This document shows, piece by piece, positions 5,110 to 61,388 of a stretch of DNA of 64,000 nt. The notes beneath the pieces were generated by a model, which had not been told where the DNA came from, ran no database searches, and saw only the letters and a program-made list of their open reading frames with translations. The stretch is taken from IMG/VR virus record IMGVR_UViG_3300043466_002831, positions 57,364-121,363 of that record; one strand, written 5' to 3'. How positions within the stretch are numbered: position 1 is the first letter of the stretch; every line of letters begins with the position of its first letter. A program made the translations under genes and the position numbers. Source of the DNA: a virus (Duplodnaviria > Heunggongvirae > Uroviricota > Caudoviricetes).

Positions 5110-5832
5110 ATGAAATTAAATGATTTATTAACTATTGTAATCCCTTGTAAAAACGAGAAGGATATTATATCTAAAACATTAGATTTATTAAATCATCAAA
5201 CAAATATTAAAGGGGTTAAAGTTATTGTTTGTGATTCATCTGATGATTTATATACCAAATTAGTTTTATTTAATAAATCAGAATATAACTCAAATGAGTA
5301 TGATTTTAAATTAGAAGTAATTGAAGGTGGTTTACCTGCTAAAGCAAGAAACAATGGATTTAACTTAGTTACTACACCATATGTTTTATTTATGGACGCT
5401 GATATATTCCTGTTGGACAGTAATCTTTTGGTTAATACTGTTTCAAAAATAAAAGACGAAGATTTAGATTTAGTCAGTGTTAGGTTTAGAACTGACAACG
5501 GAGACTACAATTACGTTTATAAAGTTTTTGATATTCTACAAAAACTATCAATGTTAATTTCACCATTCTGTTTGGGTGGATTCATGTTAACCAAATCATC
5601 GAAGTTTAAAGAGATTGGTGGATTTGATGAAGAAGTTAAAGTTGCTGAGGATTATGTTTATTCCAAACAAATAAAAAGTAATATGTTTAAAATACATAAT
5701 GCTTTTGTATATACACCGCCACGAAGATTCCACAATAAAGGTTTGTGGTATATGACCAAATTAATGATTGGGTCAGTCCTAAATAAAAACAATAAAGAAT
5801 ATTTTAAAGATAGTAAGAGTTATTGGTCATGA
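5110..5832 (+). CDS. family 2 glycosyltransferase
   Basis: LTIVIPCKNE...VIVCDSSDD...FMDADI pattern typical of GT-A/GT2 enzymes. Confidence 0.65.
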   Translation: MKLNDLLTIVIPCKNEKDIISKTLDLLNHQTNIKGVKVIVCDSSDDLYTKLVLFNKSEYNSNEYDFKLEVIEGGLPAKARNNGFNLVTTPYVLFMDADIFLLDSNLLVNTVSKIKDEDLDLVSVRFRTDNGDYNYVYKVFDILQKLSMLISPFCLGGFMLTKSSKFKEIGGFDEEVKVAEDYVYSKQIKSNMFKIHNAFVYTPPRRFHNKGLWYMTKLMIGSVLNKNNKEYFKDSKSYWS

Positions 5833-6545
5833 ACACATGGAGAACAATAATAATGAGTGATTTGCATCTTGGTGCACGACAATCACAAACAGATAAGATT
5901 ATCAAATTCTTGGAAGAAAATGAATCTGAGACATTAATTTTAAATGGTGACATCATTGACGGATGGGCACTTAAAAGTGGAGGAAAATGGAAAAAAGAAT
6001 GTTCCAAGATATTCCGAAGATTTATGAAAAGGAGTGAAATGGGTACAAAGGTGGTTTACCTCAGAGGTAATCACGATGACTTTTTAAAACCATTTGTTCC
6101 GTTCTTCATGAATAACATTCAAATTGTAAGAAAATATACACACATCGGAGCTGATGGTAGAAAGTACTACTGTTTCCATGGAGACGTTCTTGACTTTGTG
6201 ATTATGAAAGTAAGATGGTTAGCGGTACTTGGCGGTATATCTTATGACTTTGTAATCAAATTGAATACGATGTATAATTTCATCAGGAGGAAGTTTAATC
6301 TACCTTATCATTCTTTGGCGAATGATATTAAGCAAAGTGTTAAGGGTGCGATTAATTTTGTTTCTGACTTTGAAGAAAATGCTAAAGGATTAACAAAAAG
6401 TAAGGGCTGTGATGTTGCGGTTTGCGGTCACATACACCAACCAAAGTTAACTGAAGATTATATGAATTCAGGTGATTTCTGTGAGAACTCAACTTGTTTG
6501 GTTGAGGATTTTGAAGGTAAATGGTCGATAATTAATATGGGTTAA
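5829..6545 (+). CDS. LpxH-family calcineurin-like metallophosphoesterase
   Basis: SDLHLG...ILNGDIIDGW...LRGNHDDF...FHGDVLD...CGHIHQP matches metallophosphoesterase motifs in LpxH-like order. The track start 5823 is TTG; the ATG at 5829 overlaps the upstream stop (ATGA). Confidence 0.6.
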   Translation: MNTWRTIIMSDLHLGARQSQTDKIIKFLEENESETLILNGDIIDGWALKSGGKWKKECSKIFRRFMKRSEMGTKVVYLRGNHDDFLKPFVPFFMNNIQIVRKYTHIGADGRKYYCFHGDVLDFVIMKVRWLAVLGGISYDFVIKLNTMYNFIRRKFNLPYHSLANDIKQSVKGAINFVSDFEENAKGLTKSKGCDVAVCGHIHQPKLTEDYMNSGDFCENSTCLVEDFEGKWSIINMG

Positions 6546-6868
6546 TGATTGTACCCATATTCTGAGCTAAAAACAAATCCTTGACCATCACCACAATCAA
6601 AGAAAGAAGATACTTTAGGTTCTTTATTGTACATTTGTTTGTCAGGTGACAACATTTTAAACAAAGTTTTAACCTCGGAATCTATCTCCATTTGTTTTTT
6701 TGTTGATAAACATTCTGATGTGTAAAAATCAACAACATAACTATAACCTAAAAATAGTTCCATATTTTCATCGGCAAATAAATCTCGAACCTCAAATTCA
6801 GTTAATTCAGGGTATTGAGGTATGATTAATTTTTTAATTACAGTTTCTATTTGTGGAATAAGACTCAT
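6542..6868 (-). CDS. hypothetical protein
   Basis: 108-aa minus ORF. Confidence 0.5.
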   Translation of the reverse strand: MSLIPQIETVIKKLIIPQYPELTEFEVRDLFADENMELFLGYSYVVDFYTSECLSTKKQMEIDSEVKTLFKMLSPDKQMYNKEPKVSSFFDCGDGQGFVFSSEYGYNH

Positions 6869-6890
6869 ATCAGTTATAAATACTACTCAA

Positions 6891-7154
6891 TTATACAATT
6901 TCTTGGATTTTAAGGTTATACGCTTTACTGAACCACGCATTAATTACTGTAATCATAATTTTATCAATAAATTCTTTACCAAACTTTTTGTTAAGAGTTG
7001 ACTTAACCTCATCACTAACATACATGGTCGATGTTTTTATATCAAACAGGAAGAACTCATTCGCCCACGTCTGTTCTACTTTATCATAATAAAGATAAGG
7101 GAAACTAAACTTATCTTCAATGAACTTCACTATGTGTTTTTCAATTGTTGTCAT
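6891..7154 (-). CDS. hypothetical protein
   Basis: 87-aa minus ORF. Confidence 0.5.
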   Translation of the reverse strand: MTTIEKHIVKFIEDKFSFPYLYYDKVEQTWANEFFLFDIKTSTMYVSDEVKSTLNKKFGKEFIDKIMITVINAWFSKAYNLKIQEIV

Positions 7155-7209
7155 AACTTTAAAGATAATAAAGATTCATTATTAAACAAATATCTATATA
7201 TTTATTATC

Positions 7210-8421
7210 ATGAGATTAGATGAAAACATACTTAGAATAAAGGAAGTTATGGGATTGATTACCGAGGCGGAAGTAAATCCTCAAGGTGTTGAAATTAATC
7301 TTGGTAACTTATTTAAATCAGGTAAATATATTATAACACCTGAAATTGGTACTAAAATTAATTCTGCTATTAATCAAATCAAAGCATTTATTACTAAAAA
7401 TCCAGGTAAACCTGTTGTAGTTACAATAGAATCATCGGAATCAAAAGTACCTAATTATGACAGAGAAAAATTCCCATCAACTGGGAATAATGAGGTTGAT
7501 TTTACTAAAGAGAAAAAAATGGTGGTTGGAGCACTATCAAAAATTAGGGCAAATAATTTATCAACATATTTAAAACCTAAATTACCTAAAAGTGCTCAAA
7601 TAGTTATCAATGACAAGGGTGCTCAAGGACCTACTTGGGATGGCGTGAATGCGGATGCTGAAAAATATACTCAAAAACAATATGTTAAATTATTTGCAAA
7701 ACTTAACACTACCCAACCAACAACAAGTACGCCTAAAACAGACCCTAAATTTTGTACACAAGAAATAGAAAGTTCTGGTGGAAAGGGAAACCCAAGTAAT
7801 GGTTTTATCTCCGAGGTAAAAACTATTGAACTAGGTGAAGGTGAAAATACATTTAAATTCTTTATTGATTCTATAAGTGTACCTGATATTATGATTGTTG
7901 AATATAATGGGGTTACACAAACTACGGGATTTGTTGGTAGTGATACTGAATTATACCAAACTTTATTAGGGACTATAATTTATAACCGTTACGATAATTG
8001 GGGTAACCCAAGACCGTGGTGGTTCAAAAACCTTAAATTAGTTGGAGTACAACCATATCACGCTGACCAAGTTTTAAAAAAATATTCAGGTGATTGGACA
8101 CCTGATGATTTATCACACATCTATCCAAAGGCTCCTAAATTAAGTACTACTTTTTTTCAAACAATGACTAAAAATCCTGACGAATATGTTGGGAATTTTA
8201 AAGTATATAAATTAGGCTACGATTCAATTAGAACGATGGCGGCGGGAGTTGATGCTTGGAACGGTCCATCAAGTATAACTATTAATAAAGTTGCTGGTGT
8301 GAATACTGCCAAAGTTACTATCATTGGATTGATAGGTCAAACAAAATGGAAATTATATGTTAAGTGTGGTAACATTGCACCAATGTTAACAACTGCGGGT
8401 GGTTCAGGTGGGGATGCTTAA
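7210..8421 (+). CDS. hypothetical protein with variant NTM-like N-terminus
   Basis: MRLDENILRIKEVMGLITE resembles the MNLREDIERIQEVMGIE variant of the family motif. Confidence 0.55.
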   Translation: MRLDENILRIKEVMGLITEAEVNPQGVEINLGNLFKSGKYIITPEIGTKINSAINQIKAFITKNPGKPVVVTIESSESKVPNYDREKFPSTGNNEVDFTKEKKMVVGALSKIRANNLSTYLKPKLPKSAQIVINDKGAQGPTWDGVNADAEKYTQKQYVKLFAKLNTTQPTTSTPKTDPKFCTQEIESSGGKGNPSNGFISEVKTIELGEGENTFKFFIDSISVPDIMIVEYNGVTQTTGFVGSDTELYQTLLGTIIYNRYDNWGNPRPWWFKNLKLVGVQPYHADQVLKKYSGDWTPDDLSHIYPKAPKLSTTFFQTMTKNPDEYVGNFKVYKLGYDSIRTMAAGVDAWNGPSSITINKVAGVNTAKVTIIGLIGQTKWKLYVKCGNIAPMLTTAGGSGGDA

Positions 8422-8532
8422 CTTATTCGGTGAAAACTGTTGAATACTAAAAATATTATTAGTATTATTCATTGACCACACCAAAATGGTGTTTTTACGT
8501 CTATCGTGTAATTTACAAAACTACTTATCATT

Positions 8533-10752
8533 ATGAGATTATTAACTATTTTATTTTTGACCCTATTAACGTCAATAGGGTATACACAGTATTGCCCTGC
8601 ATTAGGTCCTGACCAATTACTTCCATGTGGTGTTGGTACAACAACATTAACCGCTGACCTATCCCAATGTGGTGGAGGTGGGGCAAACCCAAATCAAACA
8701 ACAAACTACGGTGTAACTAATATACCTTACGTTGCTCAAACAAACACAGGAACAAATTTGTTTATGACGGATGACTCCCAACAAGGGCCGTTCAGTATTG
8801 GATTTAACTTCTGTTTCTTTGGTACGACATACACTCAATTCTATGTTGGCTCTAACGGGTGGATTTCATTCGGAGCGGGACAACCAACAACCTTTACGTC
8901 TCAACCAATCCCAACAGGTAATGGTTTGGTACCTAAAAATTGTATCATGGGTCCTTGGCAAGATTGGCATCCTGGTCTTGGAGGTCAAATAAAATACCAA
9001 GTTCAAGGAGTTGCACCATGTAGAAAACTTGTAGTTAGTTGGATTAACATGCCGATGTTTTCATGTACAGGTAATCAAGGTACATTCCATATTGTAATAT
9101 ATGAATCGTCTAACTATATTGAGAATTATATTCAAAATAAACCTGCGTGTTTGCAGTGGCAAGGTGGGACTGCGACACAAGGAATTCATAATTCATTAGG
9201 TACTATTGGTATTGCGGTTGCTGGTAGAAACTCAACTGCGTGGACAGCAACAAACGATGCGTACAGATGGACACCAAGTGGTCCTGTAGTTACACCAACA
9301 TTAACTTGGTATCAGGTAGGTAATCCAACTCCAATAGGAACGGGACCAACAATTACGGTGACACCACCTGCGGCAGGAGCACAATATACTTGTAAATTTG
9401 TTTATCCTATTTGTAACGCGGGATGGTCAAATTGTAATTTAAGTACAGGTAACTTAGGACCCGATACGGTCTTTGTTGTGCCAGGTCCACCAAACTTACC
9501 ACCACCAATTGTTACGACATTCAACCCAAATTGTGAGGGTAGTTGTGATGGTGCAATCAATGTGGTTTCAAATGGAGGAACAGGTGTAAGTACCATTTCT
9601 TGGAATGGACAACCACCATTATTTACATTAACCAACTTATGTTCGGGAATTTATTCATTTACTATTGTGGATGCGGCAGGTTGTAATGTTTCAGGTACGG
9701 CAACTTTAGTTAATCCACCACCTGTAATCGCAAATCCAATCATTGCGTCAGATACGGTATGTTATCAGTCAAACAATATGGTATATACTACAACTGATTT
9801 AGGTGTGGGATATACATATCAATGGTCATCTGTTGGTAATATTGTGTCAGGTCAAGGGAATGATACGGTTGTTGTTGATTGGTCAGTATTACCTGCGGGG
9901 TTTATACCAAATGCTGTTGACATGATTGCCGTCAGTCCAAATGGATGTTTAAGTTTCCCCGTATCGTTTGACATCACAATATTCAATGTACTTCCTGTGA
10001 TAACACCTGTTGGACCATTCTGTTCTAACGATGAGTTCACTACGTTAAATGCAACACCAATAGGCGGAGTATTCAGTGGAACAGGGGTAATGGGTAATGA
10101 CTTTTATCCGTCTAATGCGGACACATTAAACAATATTATCACCTACACCTATACTCAAAGTGGATGTATCTTTGATACCACTACGGACATCATAGTATAT
10201 GAGCAACCAATCTTATCTCAAATCACTCCATACAACGAGTTCTTTGAAGTTTGTGACGGTGATTCAATACCAAGTATATATAGTGTAACTTCAACCGTTC
10301 TTGGTGGATATAATGAATGGACATTATTGGGTAACACAACTGAGTCGGATAACTTTAACATTGCTTGGGATGCATTTGGAACATTTGTATTATCAGTTGT
10401 AAGTTATGTTAATGGATGTGCATCACCACAACAACAAACAACAATCACAATTGCTCAATGTCCTCAAGAATTATTATACATTCCAAATTCATTTACACCT
10501 GATGGTAATGAGTTTAATAATACATGGAGACCCATAATTACTTCAGGGTTTGATAACACAGAATACCGAATGACGTTATATAATAGATGGGGTGAAATTA
10601 TATGGGAATCTCAAGACATCAACGAAGGATGGGATGGAACTTATAATAATAGTATAGTTCCTGTTGGTTCATATGTTTGGACGGTACAACTCAAGGCGTT
10701 AAAGACCGATTATAGACAGATATTGTCAGGTAGTTTGAATGTTTTAAAATAA
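8533..10752 (+). CDS. large secreted surface protein with T9SS type-B (gliding-motility-associated) C-terminal sorting domain
   Basis: Signal peptide MRLLTILFLTLLTSIGYTQ. C-terminus YIPNSFTPDGNEFNNTWRPI...YRMTLYNRWGEIIWESQDINEGWDG...GSYVWTV fits the T9SS type-B C-terminal domain pattern. Terminator follows. Confidence 0.7.
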   Translation: MRLLTILFLTLLTSIGYTQYCPALGPDQLLPCGVGTTTLTADLSQCGGGGANPNQTTNYGVTNIPYVAQTNTGTNLFMTDDSQQGPFSIGFNFCFFGTTYTQFYVGSNGWISFGAGQPTTFTSQPIPTGNGLVPKNCIMGPWQDWHPGLGGQIKYQVQGVAPCRKLVVSWINMPMFSCTGNQGTFHIVIYESSNYIENYIQNKPACLQWQGGTATQGIHNSLGTIGIAVAGRNSTAWTATNDAYRWTPSGPVVTPTLTWYQVGNPTPIGTGPTITVTPPAAGAQYTCKFVYPICNAGWSNCNLSTGNLGPDTVFVVPGPPNLPPPIVTTFNPNCEGSCDGAINVVSNGGTGVSTISWNGQPPLFTLTNLCSGIYSFTIVDAAGCNVSGTATLVNPPPVIANPIIASDTVCYQSNNMVYTTTDLGVGYTYQWSSVGNIVSGQGNDTVVVDWSVLPAGFIPNAVDMIAVSPNGCLSFPVSFDITIFNVLPVITPVGPFCSNDEFTTLNATPIGGVFSGTGVMGNDFYPSNADTLNNIITYTYTQSGCIFDTTTDIIVYEQPILSQITPYNEFFEVCDGDSIPSIYSVTSTVLGGYNEWTLLGNTTESDNFNIAWDAFGTFVLSVVSYVNGCASPQQQTTITIAQCPQELLYIPNSFTPDGNEFNNTWRPIITSGFDNTEYRMTLYNRWGEIIWESQDINEGWDGTYNNSIVPVGSYVWTVQLKALKTDYRQILSGSLNVLK

Positions 10753-10758
10753 TCTTAA

Positions 10759-10787
10759 CCCTCACAGAAATGTGGGGGTTTTTATTT
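10759..10787 (+). terminator. rho-independent terminator
   Basis: CCCTCACA-GAAA-TGTGGGGG followed by TTTTT. Confidence 0.75.
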
Positions 10788-10793
10788 AGTAAA

Positions 10794-10805
10794 GTATTTA
10801 TTAAT
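10794..10805 (+). promoter_or_regulatory. conserved upstream motif GTATTTATTAAT abutting ATG
   Basis: Identical 17-mer AAGTATTTATTAATATG also occurs at 18119-18135 and 34354-34370, each directly after a terminator. Confidence 0.5.
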
Positions 10806-11120
10806 ATGAACTTACGAGAAGACATAGAAAGAATTCAAGAGGTAATGGGTATTGAGGTATCAAATCTATTCAAACGAAAAATGCATATTGTTGACCGACT
10901 AATATATACTTTGATTGAAGATTCAATGTATCCATGTGATTATGATAATGAGGAAGAGTTTTATGAGGGAGTTATTTATGAACTCAGTTGGTTAGTTAAA
11001 AACAAGGACTTTGGTTTAGATGATGTTGAATGGTTAGATATCTATGATTACATAACAAATTTCAAAGAAGAAGAACTCAAAGGTTATTATAAAGAACGTT
11101 GTGGTGACAAAGATGTTTAA
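10806..11120 (+). CDS. NTM family protein (MNLxE variant)
   Basis: Real start is the ATG at 10806 (MNLREDIERIQEVMG). The track start 10770 lies inside the upstream terminator hairpin. Conserved GTATTTATTAAT motif immediately upstream. Confidence 0.65.
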   Translation: MNLREDIERIQEVMGIEVSNLFKRKMHIVDRLIYTLIEDSMYPCDYDNEEEFYEGVIYELSWLVKNKDFGLDDVEWLDIYDYITNFKEEELKGYYKERCGDKDV

Positions 11121-11444: not shown

Positions 11445-13205
11445 ATGAAGATTATTGTCACCAAGGAACAGCATAATATTATTAAGGAGGCGTTAGGTGT
11501 TCCTGATTCAATTTTAGATGCTGCGGAAGAACTATATGATGTATTTGCGGATAACTTAAAGAGCATTACAGATAAAGAATCATCTTATGAATTTAGAGAT
11601 GATATTGATGTGGTATTGGGTGACAAGAAGAAGATTACAATTGATGGATATACTTTAGAGGTTGAAATTGAAGAAGTTGATGATTTCCACGAAAGAGTTA
11701 CTCCTGATAGAAACGTAACAATATCTTCAATGGGTATGTCACAACAATTTAGATTTAACCGTGACACCATGATGAAAGAAATACAACCATCAACAAGTGC
11801 TGGATTCAATATTGTTTATTATGCTTCACCTGAATGGGAACCTCAAGATTTGTATGATGAATTCATTAGAGAGAAAAGTAAAAGTATTGGTTCTTTAGCC
11901 CATGAATTAAAACACAAATACGATAAACAAGCCAAACGAATTGATTTAATTGGTAAAGACGCTGAATATAGTGCGGTAGATAAACTACCATCGTTTCACG
12001 TCCCTGAGGTTGATGACCAATTTGTTCGTTATTTGTATTTTACAGATGGAACTGAGGATTTAGTTAGAACAACAGAGGTTGCTTCCAACATGAGAAGTGA
12101 AGGTATTAGTAAATCTCAATTTAGAGAATTCTTACAAAACAATAAAACCTTTAAAACTTTGGTCGATATTAAAAACTTTACCTTTGAAAAATTAATCAAA
12201 GGGATTTACAATAATCTTGACACAGTTGATAAAATCTTTGATGCTATTGATGTGGATACTGATGGAATGTCTGATAAAGATAAGGTGGAAAAGTTCTTGA
12301 AAATAATTTATGTCAATCTTTCCAATATGAAATTGCGTACATTTGAAGATTATGTTGGTAGTAGTGAAAATATGTTCGCACAATTTCTTAGAGCGATGGG
12401 ACAACTAGGTATTGCCGATGATGAAGAAGAGATTAAACTTAACAAGATTAAAACAAAATTTCAAAATCACGTTTTAAAATATAGAGATAATCCAATACAA
12501 TTCTTTAAGAGTGAAATAGACCGATTCCATAGAGTTTCAGACCAAGCAATGAAAAGAATAAGTAAACTATATGCGATGGCAAAAGACGATACAGAAATGA
12601 CAGAATCGATTATTGATTGGGAACTTCACAGACAACTGATGGAGAAGAAACACGGGAAACGACCAATAGAAACTAATTTTAAATTTATTAGTGAAGATAG
12701 AGAATCCAAAATTGAAAACATCAGACAATTAATAAAAGACCCTAACCAATTTGAAACAATGGTTAAAGTAATGGGTATTGAAAATATAATTAAAATTGCT
12801 TATGATGGCGACATAATTAAGTTCAGTGAAGACACAACTACTCCACTTGCTTATATGTCTACAGACAGAATGAATTTATATATACATAAGGCGTTAGTTG
12901 ATGAACTTGGACTAAAAGACATAGGGTGGGCTGGTCGTAATGAAAAAGAATTAGGTAAATTCGCATATGGTTCCAAGAATGGTCTGAGATACGCATTCAA
13001 CGCTACATTAGCTCCAACAAGACTTCCAAGACTTCATAACCAAAACTATTATAGAGTTGTTGGAACAAGTGGTGATTCAGGATTTGGTTATAGTTTTATT
13101 AATAAAAAAAACATATTAGGTGTAAGATATAGGCAACAAATCTTCAAACAGATAATTGACAAATACGATTTATCAAAATACATGAATGTGAAAACTTTTT
13201 ATTAA
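11445..13205 (+). CDS. NTM family protein, large (586 aa)
   Basis: N-terminus MKIIVTKEQHNIIKEALG. Terminator follows. Confidence 0.65.
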   Translation: MKIIVTKEQHNIIKEALGVPDSILDAAEELYDVFADNLKSITDKESSYEFRDDIDVVLGDKKKITIDGYTLEVEIEEVDDFHERVTPDRNVTISSMGMSQQFRFNRDTMMKEIQPSTSAGFNIVYYASPEWEPQDLYDEFIREKSKSIGSLAHELKHKYDKQAKRIDLIGKDAEYSAVDKLPSFHVPEVDDQFVRYLYFTDGTEDLVRTTEVASNMRSEGISKSQFREFLQNNKTFKTLVDIKNFTFEKLIKGIYNNLDTVDKIFDAIDVDTDGMSDKDKVEKFLKIIYVNLSNMKLRTFEDYVGSSENMFAQFLRAMGQLGIADDEEEIKLNKIKTKFQNHVLKYRDNPIQFFKSEIDRFHRVSDQAMKRISKLYAMAKDDTEMTESIIDWELHRQLMEKKHGKRPIETNFKFISEDRESKIENIRQLIKDPNQFETMVKVMGIENIIKIAYDGDIIKFSEDTTTPLAYMSTDRMNLYIHKALVDELGLKDIGWAGRNEKELGKFAYGSKNGLRYAFNATLAPTRLPRLHNQNYYRVVGTSGDSGFGYSFINKKNILGVRYRQQIFKQIIDKYDLSKYMNVKTFY

Positions 13206-40351: not shown

Positions 40352-40747
40352 ATGAAAAAAATATTACTACTAACCTTATTACTCCCAATACAACTGTTAT
40401 CACAGTATGTAAAAACACCAACTCACTTTGATAGTGAGGGAACATCCAAAAACATTATCAAGGGACATGTTAAAATGTTTTTAAAAGACACTGTTGTATA
40501 TACTGTTGAGAAAAAAAATGAAAGGTTTGTAACCAGTTGGTTACCACCATCTCAAGTAGAAAATAAATTGAACAAAGTTTTCGATTTAGGTAAGTTAGAA
40601 TACGTTAGTCGAACTAACGGGGGTTACATTTTTTCTATTGCGGTCATTAACAAAACTGATGATACAAAGGTAATCAACTATTGTAAGTTCCATGTTGATA
40701 GGATAACACAAAAGATTGAAGAGATAGAGATTTTAATTGGTGAATAA
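40352..40747 (+). CDS. secreted protein or lipoprotein
   Basis: Signal peptide MKKILLLTLLLPIQLLSQ. Confidence 0.5.
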   Translation: MKKILLLTLLLPIQLLSQYVKTPTHFDSEGTSKNIIKGHVKMFLKDTVVYTVEKKNERFVTSWLPPSQVENKLNKVFDLGKLEYVSRTNGGYIFSIAVINKTDDTKVINYCKFHVDRITQKIEEIEILIGE

Positions 40748-40750
40748 TAC

Positions 40751-41866
40751 ATGAAAAAAATAATAATGCTGTTAATGCTTTTGGTCTCCTTAGCAACGGC
40801 GAATGCAAAATGTGATTGGAGCTCACTAAAACTCCAACAATGGAACAATCGTAATGTTTATAAATGGTACGTAAGTGGTCAAGCACTTGACGACACTTGT
40901 GTTGATTGGATGTTTATGGTTTACGATTTTCAAACCAAGAAAACAGATACTGTGTATGATAACAAAGGCATTTGTGAGGTTCAATTTAATGTTAAAGGTA
41001 AATACAAAATGTATTTGAAGGTATGGAACAAATGTGAAAAATGCGACACTACCCTTTACCGTGAAGTAAACATTATTCAATTTCCAGGTGCTAAAGTAAC
41101 TAGTACCCCATCAACTTTAAATTGTAAAAAATATAAGTTTGAGTTGAGTTACATTAAAGGTTTTTCAGTTAAAGACACTTGTATGGATTACTATTTAGTG
41201 TTTTATTCAGGACCTTGGATGGCTAAGATGACTCAAAGTGAGTGGGATAATTTAACTGATTACCAAATCGGAATGGAGTATGATTTTCCAGATGCTGACT
41301 TTATAGATTATACTGAAACACGAATTGTAGATTATACTTTTAAAAACTCAGGTCGTGTGTTGATGATTGCTCAGTGGTATAATAAATGTATTGGTCAGGA
41401 TACATTCATGTTTAGGAAGTTAGATGTTTGTGGAACAACTACAAAGCCTAAATGTGATTGGTCTAAAGTGAAATTAGCCTATAATAACAAATGTAATACT
41501 TATGTTTTTGAATTAGGTTCACTTGATACTTGTATTAGTTATACAACTTATATTTACAATTTCAAAACTCAAAAATGGACCGATACATTTAAAACAAGAA
41601 TTTTTACTAAAACATTTGCCGATACTGGTAAGTATAAATTATATGTTGTAGGCAGAAATAAATGTGGTGGATGTGATACTGCTTATTCTAATTTTGTAAC
41701 CGTAACTTGTCAACCAACATCAAGTGTTAATGAAGTTATTAAAGGTGAACCTAAATTGATTGGAATGTATGATATGATGGGTCGTCCTGTCCATAATGTT
41801 CGTAAAGAAGATATTATAATTTATCTTTACGATAACGGTACAACCAAAAAAGTATTGATACCCTAA
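40751..41866 (+). CDS. secreted protein with duplicated Cys-containing ~90-aa domain and T9SS type-A C-terminal sorting tail
   Basis: Signal peptide MKKIIMLLMLLVSLATANA. Internal duplication KCDWS...KWY...KGKYKMYLKVWNKCEKCDT versus KCDWS...GKYKLYVVGRNKCGGCDT. C-terminus KLIGMYDMMGRPVHNVRKEDIIIYLYDNGTTKKVLIP resembles a Por secretion tail. Confidence 0.6.
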   Translation: MKKIIMLLMLLVSLATANAKCDWSSLKLQQWNNRNVYKWYVSGQALDDTCVDWMFMVYDFQTKKTDTVYDNKGICEVQFNVKGKYKMYLKVWNKCEKCDTTLYREVNIIQFPGAKVTSTPSTLNCKKYKFELSYIKGFSVKDTCMDYYLVFYSGPWMAKMTQSEWDNLTDYQIGMEYDFPDADFIDYTETRIVDYTFKNSGRVLMIAQWYNKCIGQDTFMFRKLDVCGTTTKPKCDWSKVKLAYNNKCNTYVFELGSLDTCISYTTYIYNFKTQKWTDTFKTRIFTKTFADTGKYKLYVVGRNKCGGCDTAYSNFVTVTCQPTSSVNEVIKGEPKLIGMYDMMGRPVHNVRKEDIIIYLYDNGTTKKVLIP

Positions 41867-46810: not shown

Positions 46811-49516
46811 ATGTCCATTATTCAACAATTATTTGCATACAATACAGGTTCCACTATTTCAGGGACAATTCAAGTTGGCTTAGTTGCCATAATTGAAGAT
46901 ATAACAAATTATAGTCCTAATTTGGGTGATTTACGATGGTGGGCAGGTCCAGATGAATCTTTGGGATATGTTATTGTATATCCTGTTCCCGCTGGAGACC
47001 ATCCAACACCTGTTCCTGGTGAAACAGCATTTATTGGTTTTTTAGGTACCAAAAACATGGCAAACCCATTTAACGAATCAACATTTGTTGAATTGGTTAA
47101 TAATTCATTTAATCAAAATTTTACAAATGGTAATGATGCATCAACATGGTTAACAACTAATGGTTATTGGAATTCATGGGTATCCATAACCCCAACGCCA
47201 ACGGCAACTCTTGGAGTAACTCAAACTCCAACTGTGACTTCAACACAAACACCAACAGTAACACCTGAAACCACACTGACACCAACACCTACTGAAACAG
47301 AAACTCCAACACCAACGCCTGAATCAACAACAACTCCAACTCCTACTGAAACAGAAACTCCAACTCCTACTGAAACTCCAACTAATACACCAACACCAGA
47401 ACCTACAACTACACCAACTAATACCGAAACTCCGACCGAAACCCCTACAGAAACTCCAACACCAGAACCTACAACTACACCAACTAATACCGAAACTCCG
47501 ACCGAAACCCCTACAGAAACTCCAACACCAGAACCTACAACTACGACAACTAATACCGAAACTCCTACTGAAACACCAACTAATACTCCAACACCTTCTG
47601 TAACACCAATACCTGTTACAGGATATGGATTTAATTTAGTGGCAACACCTTACAATACACCAACAATATCAGGAACAAGTATTATAAATAATGTTGCACC
47701 AATAAATAGTGGTGACACTAATCCTAACGTATTCGCAAATGGAGTACCAAATCCTCAAGGATTCTACTTTAACCCAATTGACAATACAGGTGTTGATAGA
47801 ACTAATTATTTCTCAGGATTTACAGGACAAAGTATTACAATAACATTTAATCAAACAGGAAGTACATCTATCTATTCGGGTGATACTAACTCATTACAAA
47901 CTTGGTCGTCATCAGGAGTTACTGGATTTGTATTTGGTGAAGGTATTACCACTGGACCATCAGGATTAACAGGTAACGCAATTTTAATTCAATCAGCAAC
48001 AACTCAATGGACAATTGGCATTCCTGTGTATGTTAGTGTTGAAATTAATAACCCAATAACCCCAACTCCTACTAATACTAACACCCAAACACCGACTGAA
48101 ACACCAACAGAAACTCCTACACCAGAACCTACAACAACTCCAACAAATACCGAGACTCCGACTGAAACACCAACAGTTACACCAACATTAACACAAACAC
48201 CAACTTCAACTGATTTAAGTACGATTACCACTTACACCATCTCAGGATGTAGTAGTTCAAATGTTATTGTCGCTGATTTAGGACCAGGAGCATTTTTCCC
48301 TGGTGATACATTCTATTTGGACTTTACAGGAGCGACTGCAACTGAATGTTACACAATTATCAATAAAATCAACGCAACACCTACAGATGGTGGTAACCCA
48401 ATATCTTCCTATCCTAATTGTGCCGATTGTATTGACGGAACAACCACAACTTACACAATTTCAGGATGTACTACTTTGAATGTATTAGTCGCTGATTTAG
48501 GACCAGGAGCATTCGGTGCTGGTGATATATTCAACATGACATTTACAGGAGCAACTCCAAGTGGATGTTACAGAATTGTCAATAAGATTGTTGCTACCCC
48601 AACAGATACAGGAGCACCACTAACTTTCTATTTAAATTGTGATGATTGTGAGGCTTCATTGGTAACACCAACACCTACGGCAACACCAACAAATACTGAA
48701 ACACCAACTGAGACTCCTACACCTACGGTAACAGAAACTCCGACAGGAACTCCATCGGTGACAGAAACTCCAACTGAGACTCCTACACCGACAGTGACGG
48801 AAACACCAACTAATACTCCAACAGAGACGGAAACACCAACACCAACTCCGACAGGAACAATTGGAGCGACACCTACTGAAACGGAAACTCCTACTCCAAC
48901 ACCAACTGAGACTCCAACAGGAACTCCTGAGGTAACACAAACAAATACTCCAACAGAGACGGAAACACCAACACCTACTCCGACAGGAACACCAGCGGTA
49001 ACACCAACAAATACGGAAACACCAACTGAGACTCCTACACCTACAGTAACGGAGACACCAACAAACACTCCAACAAATACGGAAACACCAACTGAGACTC
49101 CAACACCAACACCAACATCAGGGGCAACACCAGTTGGTACTTGGTTCTTCTATTCACCTGATAATGAACCTGCACCAGCACCAGTAAACAACGGTAATGC
49201 GTTATTTACTTATGGAACCGCACCTGCAATAGGTACGTATAATCCAAACTATACGGGTGGAACATTTAACATATATTTTAACAATAATAGTAGTGAACCA
49301 ATAAGTTACTTATCACAATTCTCAGGATTGAATACGACAGGTGGAACAATAACCATAAGTCAAGGAGGTAGTACCGCAATATACTCAGGAACTTCTGAAA
49401 ATTATAATCCAGGTTCGAGTTGGATAAACCTTAATGTAACTGGGTCAACACAAATGATTCAATCGGCATCAACATCGTTTGTCTTTGGAATTCCAATCAA
49501 TGTTGTGGTAAGTTAA
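46811..49516 (+). CDS. large Thr/Pro-repeat protein with duplicated Cys-containing domain (putative virion surface/fibre or adhesin-like protein)
   Basis: Long [13 protein letters not shown]-type linkers. Duplicated domain [20 protein letters not shown]...FTGAT...CY.I.NKI.ATPTD. 66-nt tandem repeats at the DNA level. Confidence 0.65.
47389..47586 (+). repeat. 66-bp tandem repeat (about 2.8 copies) inside the Thr/Pro-repeat gene
   Basis: Unit CCAACACCAGAACCTACAACTACACCAACTAATACCGAAACTCCGACCGAAACCCCTACAGAAACT, encoding [22 protein letters not shown]. Confidence 0.75.
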
Positions 49517-56832: not shown

Positions 56833-56842
56833 ACTTTTTTTG

Positions 56843-56850
56843 TATCTTTG
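56843..56850 (+). promoter_or_regulatory. -7 promoter box TATCTTTG, 4 nt upstream of ATG 56855
   Basis: TAnnTTTG-N4-ATG; supports the revised start of the signal-peptide gene. Confidence 0.5.
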
Positions 56851-56854
56851 TTAT

Positions 56855-57292
56855 ATGAAAACGATACTCACAACAATATTACTTCTTTTATCATTGACTG
56901 TCAAGTCCCAACAGTGTGATGTTTTATATGTCCCAAGTCAAAAAAGTTTGGTTGCTTCATACAATTATAAACAAATTGGTTTATATGTTGGAGGGTATTA
57001 TGTGACGACTTTTCCACAACCATTTATCTACACAACACCTTTGTCTATTGTAAACCGTGTTGGATTAACGTTTGTAAATAAAAACAATACGTTTAGTGTT
57101 ATGGGTGGTGCATATCTTAAAACTTACTTTGACCGTGTAGAGATGACACCTGATATTTGGGTTAAAATTTACCCGATTAGAATGTTGACTGGAGATAAAT
57201 CCAATCTTGATTTTGCTGTAGGCGTAAATTATATGAACGGATTTAGACTAGGAATTGGATTATCTATTCCATATTGGAGTATTTATAAGTAA
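56855..57292 (+). CDS. small secreted, possibly outer-membrane beta-barrel-like protein
   Basis: Signal peptide MKTILTTILLLLSLTVKSQQ from the ATG at 56855 (TATCTTTG-N4 upstream); alternating-hydrophobic, aromatic-rich body. Confidence 0.45.
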   Translation: MKTILTTILLLLSLTVKSQQCDVLYVPSQKSLVASYNYKQIGLYVGGYYVTTFPQPFIYTTPLSIVNRVGLTFVNKNNTFSVMGGAYLKTYFDRVEMTPDIWVKIYPIRMLTGDKSNLDFAVGVNYMNGFRLGIGLSIPYWSIYK

Positions 57293-59682: not shown

Positions 59683-60294
59683 ATGAGTAAACCAAGAAGA
59701 GAATTAAATCCGAAAGTAACAAATGGTGATAGAGTTATGTGTTTACACATGGATGGTGAGATATCCATACCCCCAATGACATTAGGAACCGTTAGAAATG
59801 TTGTTAGAGACCCTTTTGAGGACGATGCAGAGATTATTAATGTTACGTGGGATAATGGTAGTTCTTTAAGTTTATTATCACTTACAGATAGTTGGGTTAA
59901 AGAGCCCAAAGAACAAATTGAAGAACAGACAGGTTCAAGAGAATATGATTTCTTTTCGAAAAACCCTGAAATATTTGAAAACTTTGATTATAAGTTTTTA
60001 GTGAAATATTTGTATAAACTTAGAAAGTCTGGGGTTATTAATATGTTTCAATCTGCGGCATTTTTATATTCAGGTAGAGAGTGGATTGACAGATATTATG
60101 GTGAAAATGAGGAAGACAATGAATCATTTCAAGAACTTTTAGACATGGCTGAAGAATGTAGAAATAAAATGATTCAAGGTCTCATGAAATATATGGAATC
60201 CAAAAATATGGAGTTAGACGATATGAGTAGAGTTAATTCACTATTGAAAAGACTTGCCGACAAAATCGTCCAACTATATATAGCATTCGCTTAA
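59683..60294 (+). CDS. hypothetical protein
   Basis: 203-aa ORF. Confidence 0.5.
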   Translation: MSKPRRELNPKVTNGDRVMCLHMDGEISIPPMTLGTVRNVVRDPFEDDAEIINVTWDNGSSLSLLSLTDSWVKEPKEQIEEQTGSREYDFFSKNPEIFENFDYKFLVKYLYKLRKSGVINMFQSAAFLYSGREWIDRYYGENEEDNESFQELLDMAEECRNKMIQGLMKYMESKNMELDDMSRVNSLLKRLADKIVQLYIAFA

Positions 60295-61388
60295 TTGGAT
60301 AAAGGAGCTTTAATTGACTGATGGGATTGATAATCCTTTAAAGTAAAATCACCAACAACGTACGATTCAAAACCTGGTCTTGTTCCTGAATAAGTTGGGA
60401 ATTGATTTAAAGTCGGTAACTCAAATGGTTCTCTTGTAATCTGTTCTTTTGCTTGTTCAATGTGGTTAAGGTAAAGGTGTGTATCTCCCAAGTTTCCAAT
60501 TAACTGGTCAGGAACCATATTAACTTCTTTCGCTAAAATTGTTAATAAAAGTCCGTATGATGCAATGTTGAATGGTAAACCTAAAAACGTATCTACTGAA
60601 CGTTGATTCCACATTAAAGAGATTGCTCGTTTAGGAACATTATTCTCATTCATTTCTTGTTCAATGTGGTCATGATGCATGTGAGAACCTATTTTGTTTC
60701 CATACCAATTAAATCTTTCACTTTCGCTCAACTCTCTTGTATAAACTTGAAAGCCATAATGACAAGGAGGAAGTACCATTTGGTCTAATTCACCTACATT
60801 CCAAGCATTAACCATTAATCGTCTTGAGTCTGGATTTGTCTTAAGGTCGTTGATTAGGTTTGTGATTTGGTCTATTTTTTTTGTAAAAGTAAGGTATCTT
60901 CGGTTTTCATCAATATACCACTTTTCCCAACTTCTCCATTGTTTACCATAAATTGACCCTAATTCACCCCATTTCTTAGCAAACTCATCATCGGTTTTGA
61001 TTTTGTCAATGAATTCTTCTATTGTAAATGGTTCAGTTAATGTTCTATTTTTCTTAGAATTCTCTAATAATTTGGTTTTACCAACATATTCACCTTTATT
61101 ATATCTTTTAATATAGGCTTGGTAGGCATCACCATCCCAAATATGACATCTATTATCAACCAAATACTTGATGTTTGTATCACCACGTAGGAACCACAGT
61201 AATTCAGTTACCATAGTTTTCCAAGCCATCTTCTTGGTTGTAAGTAATGGAAACCCCTCTGACATATTATGACGGATTGTATAACCAAAGATTGATTTGG
61301 TTCCTGTTCCTGTACGGTCTTGTTTTTCAACTCCATAATCTAAAATTGACTGAAGTAAATCTTGATATTGTTTGTCTAATTTATTCAT
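60291..61388 (-). CDS. thyA: thymidylate synthase (ThyA family) with an insertion of about 50 aa
   Basis: DRTGTGTKSIFG, LLWFLRGDTN, YGKQWRSW, DSRRLMVNAWNVGELDQMVLPPCH (catalytic Cys; AWN fits dUMP specificity), FLGLPFNIASYGLL. The insertion lies between the GDAYQ and YGKQWR blocks. Confidence 0.8.
   Translation of the reverse strand: MNKLDKQYQDLLQSILDYGVEKQDRTGTGTKSIFGYTIRHNMSEGFPLLTTKKMAWKTMVTELLWFLRGDTNIKYLVDNRCHIWDGDAYQAYIKRYNKGEYVGKTKLLENSKKNRTLTEPFTIEEFIDKIKTDDEFAKKWGELGSIYGKQWRSWEKWYIDENRRYLTFTKKIDQITNLINDLKTNPDSRRLMVNAWNVGELDQMVLPPCHYGFQVYTRELSESERFNWYGNKIGSHMHHDHIEQEMNENNVPKRAISLMWNQRSVDTFLGLPFNIASYGLLLTILAKEVNMVPDQLIGNLGDTHLYLNHIEQAKEQITREPFELPTLNQFPTYSGTRPGFESYVVGDFTLKDYQSHQSIKAPLSN

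What the first reader, a model, noticed from the sequence alone, without database searches (positions are those of the whole stretch)
8533..10752. Phage-encoded 739-aa surface protein with host T9SS type-B C-terminal sorting domain
A cleavable signal peptide is followed by a Cys-, Gly- and Thr-rich beta-type body. The C-terminus is the gliding-motility-associated (CHU_C / type-B) domain that Bacteroidota use to route cargo through the type IX secretion system. A lytic phage encoding a T9SS substrate implies the host secretion and gliding apparatus is used to display a phage protein on the infected cell surface. Possible roles are superinfection exclusion, receptor masking or cell-cell adhesion.
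Basis: partly seen in the sequence, partly recalled or inferred. Interest (0 to 1): 0.75.

Follow-up and report, generated by a model that had tools for sequence, protein, structure and literature searches.

The report
Phage-carried type-B T9SS surface protein
A large freshwater phage of Bacteroidota carries a long-conserved, host-derived gene for an exported protein whose tail is the "type B" address label of the host's type IX secretion system, so infected cells probably display a phage-encoded adhesin-like protein; phage-encoded T9SS cargo has been reported before (type A), which makes this a well-supported variant rather than a first.

Summary
ORF 8533..10752 (+) encodes 739 aa. It has a Sec-type leader ending GYT|Q (Bacteroidota Q-rule) and 22 cysteines, all invariant. 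Its C-terminal domain passes the curated cut-offs of PF13585 CHU_C (49.6 vs 27 bits) and TIGR04131 T9SS type B (47.4 vs 35 bits). The window is phage: T4-type RNA ligase, endonuclease VII, sigma factor, ThyA and many ORFans. Relatives occur on 137 IMG/VR viral contigs up to 292 kb and in a 635-kb megaphage. The phage copies are monophyletic, of constant length (~731-758 aa), under purifying selection (dN/dS 0.11-0.30), and have phage-like GC3. The nearest cellular copy is chromosomal, in a Crocinitomicaceae MAG. The most conserved part is an uncharacterised ~230-aa N-terminal module (AF2 pLDDT 93) with no Pfam, NCBIfam or PDB relative. More than 3,000 cluster representatives contain it, so it is widespread in Bacteroidota surface proteins. 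No PorP/SprF shuttle gene was found in the window, so this is an "orphan" type B substrate that must rely on a host shuttle. In about 25 viral loci the gene sits inside the tail module, a minor rival reading. Phage T9SS cargo with type A CTDs is already published. Verdict: new variant of a known kind; its function is inferred, not shown.

The parts
8533..10752 (+). Complete gene: 739-aa exported protein plus stop codon
   Evidence: ORF list. The identical protein is on record on 17 contigs read, with zero nucleotide differences in the 6 loci fetched.
8533..8586 (+). Sec/SPase I signal peptide (aa 1-18, MRLLTILFLTLLTSIGYT), predicted cleavage before Q19
   Evidence: Hydrophobic core and basic n-region. 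Q19 is invariant. The small-x-small|Q pattern is kept in all 8 divergent phage copies. Q-rule: PMC5837995. This is a heuristic call, not SignalP.
8587..9282 (+). Conserved N-terminal 'tip' module (aa 19-250) of unknown function, with motifs DDSQQGP, GSNGWISF, PKNCIMGPWQDWHPG, GTFHIVIYE, GGTATQGIHN, GRNSTAWT
9283..9522 (+). Small beta sub-domain plus Cys-rich Pro-rich linker (aa 251-330)
9523..10461 (+). Stalk of about four Ig-like/PKD-like beta-sandwich domains (aa 331-643)
   Evidence: AF2 full-length model with pLDDT ~65-91 in this range. Weak PKD_6 hit at 397-450. Best Foldseek PDB matches are the Ig-like arrays of GhpA, E 2.6e-14.
10462..10749 (+). Type B T9SS C-terminal sorting domain (aa 644-739; HMM match aa 650-724 = nt 10480-10704)
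   Evidence: PF13585 49.6 bits vs 27 and TIGR04131 47.4 bits vs 35. Invariant P651 F654 T655 P656 G658 N662 R685 W686 G687 W700 G702 G712 Y714 G733. Omega 0.25.
10757..10790 (+). Intrinsic-terminator-like hairpin (10-bp stem, 5 GC pairs) plus T-run, 5 nt after the stop codon
   Evidence: Terminator scan. RNA fold -15.3 kcal/mol. Not conserved at this position in L007, L008, L009 or L091.
8478..8500 (+). Small hairpin plus T-run in the 111-nt upstream intergenic region; possibly the terminator of the preceding gene, which would make this gene its own transcription unit
   Evidence: Terminator scan and sequence. The upstream regions of phage homologs share only a weak A/T-rich 'TTTA' element about 20-25 nt before the ATG.

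Best explanation
This is a phage-borne, anciently host-derived substrate of the host type IX secretion system. Shown by sequence: the gene is intact, conserved and under purifying selection in a widespread group of large freshwater myophages that infect Flavobacteriales, most likely Crocinitomicaceae. It carries all the sequence hallmarks of a Bacteroidota type B T9SS cargo. Inferred mechanism: during infection the precursor is exported by host Sec. SPase I cleaves after Thr18 and exposes Gln19, which would become pyroglutamate under the Q-rule. The 22 invariant cysteines form disulfides in the periplasm. The C-terminal type B CTD is then recognised at the SprA translocon by a host PorP/SprF-like shuttle, because no shuttle gene was found in the phage window. 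By analogy with SprB/SprF and PG1035/PorP, the protein stays bound, uncleaved, to that outer-membrane shuttle. A short stalk of about four Ig-like domains would then hold the highly conserved ~230-aa N-terminal module away from the cell surface. Thousands of Bacteroidota surface proteins carry the same module at their distal end, which argues that it is a ligand-binding (adhesin tip) domain. My committed reading is therefore a phage-encoded surface adhesin that remodels what the infected cell, or its debris, binds. Occupying host type B shuttles, and so interfering with the T9SS-dependent surface that flavobacterial phages use for adsorption, is a plausible added or alternative benefit.
For: ORF and leader. 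CTD above curated cut-offs in two independent libraries. The CTD lies at the extreme C-terminus with conserved motif residues and is still under purifying selection, omega 0.25. All 22 Cys are invariant, which fits an extracytoplasmic disulfide-bonded protein. Phage context: T4-type RNA ligase phrog_562 1.3e-71, endonuclease VII, sigma factor, ThyA, PNK-like and GIY-YIG genes; GH19+PG_binding endolysin-like gene and HNH just upstream on the source contig; relatives on 137 IMG/VR contigs up to 292 kb; tail sheath and tube next to the gene in some. Host origin: 79 loci in Bacteroidota MAGs share only this gene with the window, apart from weak sigma-like hits in three. The phage copies are monophyletic, with sister L012, a Crocinitomicaceae chromosome flanked by enolase, CarA, RpoA and SecY. 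The best cellular CTD matches are also Crocinitomicaceae/Lishizhenia. Long residence and function: GC3 0.257 vs phage background 0.237+/-0.043 and host copy 0.372; dN/dS 0.11-0.21 overall and 0.12 for the N-module. Type B cargo needs PorP/SprF shuttles, stays uncleaved on them, and orphan substrates exist: PMC12618676 and PMC9143113. No PorP/SprF or other T9SS family was found among the window ORFs scanned or with precomputed Pfam annotation. The Ig stalk resembles the T9SS-secreted filament GhpA. T9SS and gliding mutations confer phage resistance in Flavobacterium: PMC9804748 and 10.1101/2020.10.02.323337.
Against: There is no experimental evidence of secretion or surface location. The signal peptide was judged by rules, not by a trained predictor. 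Type B CTD-shuttle recognition is specific (PMC12618676) and no shuttle is encoded nearby, so secretion depends on an unidentified host shuttle. The CTD is among the faster-evolving parts of the protein (58% vs 82% mean pairwise identity). That could mean host-shuttle tracking, but also relaxed constraint. The function of the N-module is unknown, and its many invariant polar residues would also fit an enzyme. In about 25-28 of 84 viral loci the gene is embedded, co-oriented, in the tail module. The host is inferred only from phylogeny and co-occurrence; there is no CRISPR or isolate evidence.
Confidence: 0.65

Rival explanations
1. T9SS shuttle/track competitor (exclusion factor). The protein's main job is not to bind a ligand. 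Instead it saturates the host PorP/SprF-like shuttle(s) or replaces the host's own homologous surface protein, which removes or masks the phage receptor. This would block superinfection and stop progeny being wasted on lysed-cell debris, in the way T5 Llp or Cor block FhuA.
For: The phage copy is a shortened paralogue of a host surface-protein family: 739 aa against 815-2,716 aa, with the same N-module and CTD type. It is an orphan type B substrate that must use a host shuttle (PMC12618676). The CTD diverges faster than the N-module among phages, as expected if it tracks different hosts' shuttles. The late tail-operon position in some phages would suit protection of progeny at lysis. T9SS/gliding surface components determine phage susceptibility in flavobacteria.
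Against: The N-module is the most strongly constrained region (omega 0.12). That is unexpected if only the CTD mattered. No receptor is known for these phages. This is pure inference.
Confidence: 0.15
2. Secreted or surface-tethered enzyme. The N-module is catalytic, for example a glycan- or protein-modifying or receptor-destroying activity, and the T9SS delivers it outside the infected cell.
For: There is a dense set of invariant polar residues across phage and cellular members: D80 D81, N108, D144, H146, R164, E191, K203, H219, R232 N233. The module is very strongly constrained. Published phage T9SS cargo includes glycoside hydrolases (PMC7468147).
Confidence: 0.1
3. Virion protein. It would be an Ig-decorated tail-associated or receptor-binding protein, with the CTD-like domain acting as a structural or host-binding module rather than a secretion signal.
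Against: A Sec leader with Q at +1 is conserved in every copy, including tail-module copy L108. 22 invariant cysteines suit an oxidising compartment, not cytoplasmic assembly. In the window and in L007-L009 and L123 the gene lies among non-structural genes with no fixed neighbour. There is no PHROG structural-protein match. Exported 'moron' proteins inside tail regions have precedent (lambda Lom; from my own knowledge).
Confidence: 0.07
4. Passenger or artefact: a recently captured host gene, a decaying gene, or host DNA mis-assembled into a viral contig.
For: Local GC is raised (0.39 vs ~0.32). The closest family members are cellular.
Against: GC3 equals the phage background, and the excess GC is at codon position 2, so it reflects amino-acid composition. 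The identical gene with the same flanks is seen on 17 independent contigs. Full-length homologs occur on 137 IMG/VR contigs down to 44% identity. dN/dS is 0.11-0.30 in every region. There are no frameshifts or internal stops.
Confidence: 0.02

Closest known systems
Type B CTD cargo of the Bacteroidota T9SS (SprB, Fjoh_3952 and the orphans Fjoh_1123/1720/4934 of F. johnsoniae; PG1035 of P. gingivalis)
   Same: It has an N-terminal Sec leader and a C-terminal TIGR04131/PF13585 domain at the extreme C-terminus. The body is built of Ig-like repeats. Like the F. johnsoniae orphans, it has no adjacent porP/sprF-like gene.
   Different: It is encoded by a phage, not a cell. It is much shorter than SprB, and the window protein has no SprB-repeat (PF13573) hit. 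It carries a distinct, uncharacterised N-terminal module. Its shuttle and its T9SS dependence are unknown.
'Cryophage' T9SS cargo genes (Bellas et al. 2020, PMC7468147) and T9SS-sorting-domain ORFs of crAss-like phages (PMC6949934)
   Same: These are phage genomes of Bacteroidota encoding proteins with T9SS sorting domains, interpreted as hijacking the host secretion system.
   Different: The Cryophage proteins carry type A CTDs, which use the PorV shuttle, PorU cleavage and LPS anchoring. They are enzymes or PA14 proteins and are hypervariable 'flexible' genes. The present gene carries a type B CTD (PorP/SprF shuttle, uncleaved). It is a conserved single-copy family of constant architecture across more than 100 viral contigs, and its body is adhesin-like.
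Phage 'moron' envelope proteins exported by host pathways (lambda Lom/Bor; T5 Llp, phi80/N15 Cor). This comparison rests on my own knowledge.
   Same: They are phage-encoded proteins with host-type export signals that end up in or on the host outer membrane and alter adhesion or block receptors. They are sometimes located within tail-gene regions.
   Different: They use different export routes (Bam/Lol vs T9SS) and have unrelated folds. Those examples are small proteins. The moron hallmarks here are mixed: a terminator is present, but GC3 is not atypical.
GhpA 'grappling hook' of Aureispira (PDB 9flw, 9flp, 9fly and others)
   Same: It is the best structural match of the Ig-like stalk (Foldseek E 2.6e-14). 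It too is a Bacteroidota cell-surface filament built of Ig-like domains; that it is T9SS-secreted rests on my own knowledge, not on a tool result here.
   Different: The similarity is of generic Ig-array type (TM 0.24-0.45, 15-22% identity). GhpA is over 5,000 aa. There is no evidence that the N-module is shared.
Cellular members of the same N-module family (e.g. the 849-aa protein on Crocinitomicaceae contig JBILRE010000002.1, locus L012)
   Same: It is 62% identical over residues 6-455 and 46% in the CTD. It has the same leader type, N-module and type B CTD.
   Different: Cellular members are longer (815-2,716 aa in the fetched loci, up to ~6,000 aa in the library) with variable stalks. Some carry type A instead of type B CTDs (PF18962). 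They lie in chromosomes among housekeeping genes.

Membership tests
T9SS type B CTD cargo (TIGR04131 / PF13585) | The C-terminal domain matches the type B sorting-domain model above the curated threshold | tested here: met
   PF13585 49.6 bits (cut-off 27) and TIGR04131 47.4 bits (cut-off 35), with near full-length profile coverage.
T9SS type B CTD cargo (TIGR04131 / PF13585) | The domain lies at the extreme C-terminus of the protein | tested here: met
   The match covers residues 650-724 of 739, and the last beta-strand runs to residue 737 in the AF2 model.
T9SS type B CTD cargo (TIGR04131 / PF13585) | [quoted passage not shown] | tested here: met
   Basic n-region, 13-residue hydrophobic core, G-Y-T|Q site. 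Q19 is invariant, and the pattern is conserved in 8 divergent phage copies. This is rule-based only; SignalP was not available.
T9SS type B CTD cargo (TIGR04131 / PF13585) | Cognate porP/sprF-like shuttle gene directly downstream (common but not universal; orphans exist, PMC12618676) | tested here: not met
   The downstream ORFs are 116 and 84 aa with no Pfam hit. No PorP/SprF family was found among the window ORFs scanned or with precomputed Pfam annotation. No recurring ~300-350-aa neighbour appears in 84 viral loci. This places it with 'orphan' type B substrates.
T9SS type B CTD cargo (TIGR04131 / PF13585) | The five conserved CTD motifs A-E required for secretion (Paillat et al. 2025) | tested here: inconclusive
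   The motif sequences are only in a figure that is not held. Conserved blocks PNSFTPDG.., NRWGE, WDG, G.Y.W and GS.N.. are present and largely invariant in the clade, and the HMM coverage is near complete. A one-to-one mapping was not possible.
T9SS type B CTD cargo (TIGR04131 / PF13585) | Secretion depends on T9SS core genes and a PorP/SprF-like shuttle; the host possesses a T9SS | not testable with these tools
   The host is inferred as Crocinitomicaceae/Flavobacteriales from phylogeny and CTD similarity. Genetics in a host is needed.
SprB-type gliding adhesin | Very large protein built of SprB repeats (PF13573) | tested here: not met
   No PF13573 hit at E<=1 in the window protein, which is 739 aa. 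Some clade members carry a precomputed PF13573 hit, so a degenerate repeat may be present.
Phage moron (independently transcribed accessory gene) | Own promoter and terminator and atypical composition | tested here: inconclusive
   Terminator-like hairpins flank the gene in the window but are not conserved in other phages. No convincing conserved promoter was found. GC3 is typical of the phage. The genomic position varies between phage lineages, which is moron-like.
Virion Ig-like decoration / tail protein | Cytoplasmic assembly (no export signal) and a match to structural protein families | tested here: not met
   A conserved Sec leader and 22 invariant Cys. No PHROG structural match. Only the tail-module position in a subset of loci favours this family.

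The most novel reading that the evidence does not exclude
A conserved gene family of huge freshwater phages makes the infected cell load a phage-designed adhesin onto the host's type B (PorP/SprF) arm of the T9SS, the arm that feeds the gliding-motility track. The virus would thereby reprogramme the adhesion or movement of the 'virocell', for example by sticking infected cells to particles or to uninfected kin to promote transmission. Alternatively it would displace the host's own homologous surface protein that serves as the phage receptor. The fast-evolving CTD would then be a phage-side record of host shuttle specificity, and the uncharacterised N-module (more than 3,000 cluster representatives) would gain its first functional handle.
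Probability: 0.2. Interest if true: 0.8.

Novelty: new variant of a known kind. Interest (0 to 1): 0.55.

Why it matters
The T9SS is restricted to Bacteroidota and underlies their gliding, polymer degradation and virulence. Its surface products are also the landscape that flavobacterial phages adsorb to. A conserved, selected, phage-encoded type B substrate without its own shuttle is a natural experiment on two open questions. The first is how orphan type B CTDs are matched to PorP/SprF shuttles. The second is whether viruses remodel the T9SS-dependent cell surface during infection. The gene also flags a very large, unannotated N-terminal module of Bacteroidota surface proteins whose compact phage version (739 aa) would be a tractable entry point for structure and ligand studies. 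Finally, a T9SS CTD plus a Q-rule leader gives a sequence-only host-phylum marker for uncultured huge phages.

Tried and rejected
1. Host chromosome or prophage edge. Rejected: no housekeeping genes were found in the window, the ORFs scanned are phage-type or ORFans, and GTDB loci share only this gene.

2. Eukaryotic giant virus, considered because of AT-richness and the many ORFans. Rejected: sigma-70-type factor, T4-type RNA ligase, a split topoisomerase II on a related contig, myovirus sheath and tube next to homologs, and the Bacteroidota-specific CTD.

3. Recent horizontal transfer inferred from raised GC. Rejected by the codon-position analysis.

4. The nearest 'cellular' neighbours being mis-binned phage contigs. 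Rejected for L012, L014 and L015, which are flanked by enolase, RpoA, SecY, ThrRS and similar genes.

6. The first AF2 run with a shallow alignment failed for residues 1-322. It was solved with a more diverse alignment.

7. A search for a linked partner gene, shuttle or constant neighbour across 84 viral loci found none.

8. A search for further type B CTD ORFs in the window and four related phage loci with a local HMM found only the target.

9. A conserved promoter upstream could not be established.

10. A literature search for CHU_C/TIGR04131 in phages was noisy and found nothing relevant.
Full report
**Observation.** The ORF is exactly as described: 8533..10752 on the + strand, ATG start, 739 aa. 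The protein is rich in Thr (11.9%), Gly (10.4%), Asn and Pro. It has 22 Cys and is acidic. The N-terminus, MRLLTILFLTLLTSIGYT|QYCP, has the n-, h- and c-regions of a Sec/SPase I leader, with small residues at -3/-1 and Gln at +1. Q19 is invariant in 32 clade members. Eight divergent phage copies all end their leaders small-x-small|Q: GYT|Q, GFA|Q, GFS|Q, AMS|Q, GYS|Q, TYS|Q, SNA|Q. This matches the Bacteroidota 'Q-rule' (PMC5837995). SignalP was not available, so this point is rule-based.

The C-terminus matches PF13585 CHU_C (49.6 bits; gathering cut-off 27; residues 650-724; profile 3-73/86) and TIGR04131, 'T9SS type B sorting domain' (47.4 bits; cut-off 35).

**Is the window phage?** Yes. 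The window has about 32% GC, is densely coded mostly on one strand, and has no tRNAs. Most large ORFs are ORFans. Those with matches are phage-typical:
- T4-type RNA ligase (phrog_562, 1.3e-71)
- endonuclease VII
- a sigma factor
- thymidylate synthase
- a PNK-like protein and metallophosphoesterases
- a GIY-YIG endonuclease
- Band_7 and cyclophilin

Just upstream on the source contig are an HNH gene and a GH19+PG_binding endolysin-like gene. The identical protein is on record on 17 contigs read, and the six loci fetched show zero nucleotide differences. Homologs at 68-78% identity sit on 150-279-kb contigs. These are equally ORFan-rich, one carries a T4-like split topoisomerase II, and they share other window genes.

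IMG/VR holds 137 viral contigs with a relative. Most of the 80 loci returned are full-length at 44-85% identity, on contigs up to 292 kb. In some of them the gene is flanked by tail sheath (phrog_23, 9e-72) and tail tube (phrog_4542, 7e-22). A 635-kb 'uncultured phage' (LR745206.1) carries a full-length copy at 55% identity. The four curated genomes of 634-735 kb in that study were predicted to infect Bacteroidetes (PMC7162821). Freshwater phages of 293-331 kb and 31-34% GC that infect Bacteroidetes have been described (PMC9723584). They resemble this group in size, GC and habitat, but I did not test membership. 'Lytic' could not be tested.

**Origin and evolution.** A scan of one genome per GTDB species found 79 loci, nearly all in Bacteroidota MAGs. 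Some lie on contigs of 0.4-1.4 Mb. None shares any other gene with the window, apart from weak sigma-like hits in three loci.

Cellular homologs are longer (815-2,716 aa). They share mainly the first ~300-480 residues (47-62% identity) and the CTD. In a neighbour-joining tree of the N-terminal module, the phage copies form one clade. The sister is L012, an 849-aa protein on a Crocinitomicaceae contig. That contig is a real chromosome, since the gene is flanked by enolase, CarA, RpoA and SecY. The MAG comes from JGI sample 3300042564, which also yielded a phage contig with the identical gene. The best cellular CTD matches are again Crocinitomicaceae/Lishizhenia and Flavobacteriales. The likely host lineage is therefore Crocinitomicaceae. 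This is an inference.

The transfer is old:
- GC3 of the gene (0.257) equals the phage background (0.237 +/- 0.043) and differs from the host copy (0.372).
- The raised total GC comes entirely from codon position 2, meaning amino-acid composition.
- Pairwise dN/dS among phage copies is 0.11-0.21.
- By region, dN/dS is 0.12 for the N-module, 0.24 for the Cys-rich sub-domain, 0.30 for the Ig stalk and 0.25 for the CTD.
- Length is nearly constant: 731-819 aa over the 68 full-length viral-locus copies, median 737, and 731-758 aa among the copies examined individually.
- All 22 cysteines are invariant.

The gene is thus a functional, long-maintained phage gene, not a passenger.

**Anatomy.**
- *Full-length model.* The full-length AF2 model is confident for residues ~323-739. 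It shows about four Ig-like beta-sandwich domains followed by the CTD. The best PDB matches are the Ig arrays of GhpA, the 'grappling hook' filament of Aureispira (E 2.6e-14). This similarity is generic.
- *N-module model.* With a more diverse alignment, the N-terminal 317 residues fold with pLDDT 93.3 and pTM 0.87. They form a large beta-sandwich core plus a small trailing beta sub-domain.
- *Family size.* The family is nevertheless enormous. There are 3,241 representatives of 50%-identity clusters at E <= 1e-30, in proteins up to ~6,000 aa. The module is usually N-terminal and sometimes internal or repeated. It is combined with SprB repeats, PKD/Ig domains, a P-domain, and either type A or type B CTDs.
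- *Conserved motifs.* Motifs such as PKNCIMGPWQDWHPG, GSNGWISF and GRNST.WT are nearly invariant from phage to distant cellular members.
- *Reading.* A distal module on a repeat stalk anchored through a C-terminal CTD is the layout of an adhesin tip. An enzymatic role cannot be excluded.

**Mechanism.**
- *Established knowledge.* T9SS cargo is exported by Sec and then recognised through its CTD. Type B CTDs do not use PorV. They need a cognate PorP/SprF-like outer-membrane shuttle, usually encoded directly downstream, and 'orphan' substrates share a separately encoded shuttle (PMC12618676). Type B cargo such as SprB and PG1035 remains uncleaved and bound to its PorP-like protein on the surface (PMC9143113).
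- *This gene.* The phage gene has no such partner. The downstream ORFs are 116 and 84 aa. No PorP/SprF or other T9SS family was found among the window ORFs scanned or with precomputed Pfam annotation. No constant neighbour exists across 84 viral loci. It is therefore an orphan type B substrate that must be matched to a host shuttle.
- *CTD divergence.* The CTD, with parts of the Ig stalk, is among the least conserved regions between phage lineages (58% vs 82% mean pairwise identity). It is still under purifying selection. This is what one would expect if it tracks host shuttle specificity, but that remains an inference.
- *Committed model (confidence 0.65).* The steps are Sec export, cleavage before Q19, periplasmic disulfide formation, T9SS translocation through a host PorP/SprF-like shuttle, and display of the N-module on a short Ig stalk at the surface of the infected cell.
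- *Physiological role.* Adhesion remodelling seems most likely. Competition for shuttles, or receptor masking, is a serious alternative, given that T9SS and gliding mutations confer phage resistance in Flavobacterium.

**Rival: a virion protein.** In about 25-28 of 84 viral loci the gene is co-oriented between the tail tube and a baseplate-hub-like gene. That suggests late expression and raises the possibility of a tail-associated protein. Several points argue against it:
- The Sec leader and Q19 are conserved in every copy examined, including tail-module copy L108.
- The 22 invariant cysteines suit an oxidising compartment rather than cytoplasmic assembly.
- The CTD is intact.
- There is no structural PHROG match.
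- In other lineages, this window included, the gene lies among non-structural genes.

Exported accessory genes inside tail regions have precedent (lambda Lom; my own knowledge). I give this rival about 0.07.

**Comparison with what is known, and novelty.** Phage-encoded T9SS cargo is not new in kind. Bellas et al. 2020 described three type A CTD proteins in 'Cryophage' and called it a unique occurrence (PMC7468147). T9SS-sorting-domain ORFs were noted in crAss-like phages (PMC6949934). Q-rule leaders were noted in P. gingivalis phages (PMC10367356). JGI already auto-labels this family 'gliding motility-associated-like protein'.

Several things are different here:
- the type B class of CTD, which implies another shuttle and anchoring route
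- its orphan status
- its conservation as a constant-architecture family across more than 100 viral contigs, including megaphages
- its demonstrable ancient origin from a Flavobacteriales surface-protein family
- the unannotated N-module it carries

I found no paper describing type B CTD proteins in phages in the library searched. That library is incomplete. I rate it a new variant of a known kind, with interest 0.55.

Noticed in passing
window 7210..8421 (+) and 10770..11120 (+); also 11445..13205 (+): The two ORFs that flank the target share an N-terminal motif 'I.RI.EVMG' (MRLDENILRIKEVMGLITE; NLREDIERIQEVMGIEV). The next ORF starts similarly (KEQHNIIKEALGV). Related starts (e.g. ...IRKVLREE...IRKILKEN) appear in ORFs of other viral loci (L123). 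This may be a family-wide N-terminal tag of unknown meaning.
   Followed up: partly
window 40352..40747, 40751..41866, 56840..57292 (+): Three further ORFs have Sec-like leaders. Two have Gln at the predicted +1 position (...LLS|QYVK...VKS|QQCD), and the third reads ...ANA|KCD. None has a Pfam hit. The phage seems to encode several exported proteins adapted to Bacteroidota signal-peptide rules.
   Followed up: partly
window 46811..49516 (+), 901 aa: The composition is very skewed (GC2 0.61, GC3 0.18) inside a locally GC-richer stretch (46-50 kb). The only match is an unknown-function PHROG (phrog_15511, 6.7e-15), and there is no Pfam hit.
   Followed up: no
window 60291..61388 (-): Thymidylate synthase of 365 aa. 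The Pfam match spans profile positions 1-265 over residues 6-364, so the protein carries about 100 extra residues (an insertion) relative to the family.
   Followed up: no
LR745206.1 (635 kb) and LR756502.1 (642 kb), phage collection: The megaphage LR745206.1 has 3 places matching the query, and LR756502.1 has 2 places. The only LR756502.1 place listed matches the CTD alone, at 33% identity. Megaphages of Bacteroidota may therefore encode several type B CTD proteins.
   Followed up: no
L123 / L143 (IMG/VR contigs of 226 and 171 kb), 5147..9083 (-): Immediately upstream of the homolog lie divergently oriented genes with Q-rule-type leaders (…LNVNS|QTD, …SIVYS|QPT). The 467- and 641-aa neighbours have weak 'kinase' PHROG matches. 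This may be a small cluster of exported phage proteins.
   Followed up: partly
L108, L131 and about 25 other IMG/VR loci: The homolog is inserted between the tail tube and baseplate-hub-like genes of a myovirus tail module, after the sheath. In L131 the best ORF is 758 aa, with an extended N-terminus that probably reflects an upstream false start.
   Followed up: yes
GTDB loci L014, L027, L032: Contigs carrying this Bacteroidota-type gene are labelled 'Candidatus Competibacteraceae' or 'uncultured Akkermansia'. These are probably binning or labelling errors in the MAGs.
   Followed up: no
L081, L017-L025, L037 and other cellular loci: Cellular homologs often sit in tandem arrays of several large CHU_C-bearing genes; L081 has at least five. 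In L015 the neighbour instead carries a type A CTD (PF18962).
   Followed up: no
window protein residues 311, 407, 444, 530, 548, 577: There are six D(S/T)(A/I/L/V/M/T) sequons, where about 2 are expected from composition. Several are invariant in the clade (D311-T312-V313, D407-T408). This is the general Bacteroidota O-glycosylation motif (my own knowledge). Glycosyltransferase and metallophosphoesterase genes lie a few kb away in several phage loci.
   Followed up: partly
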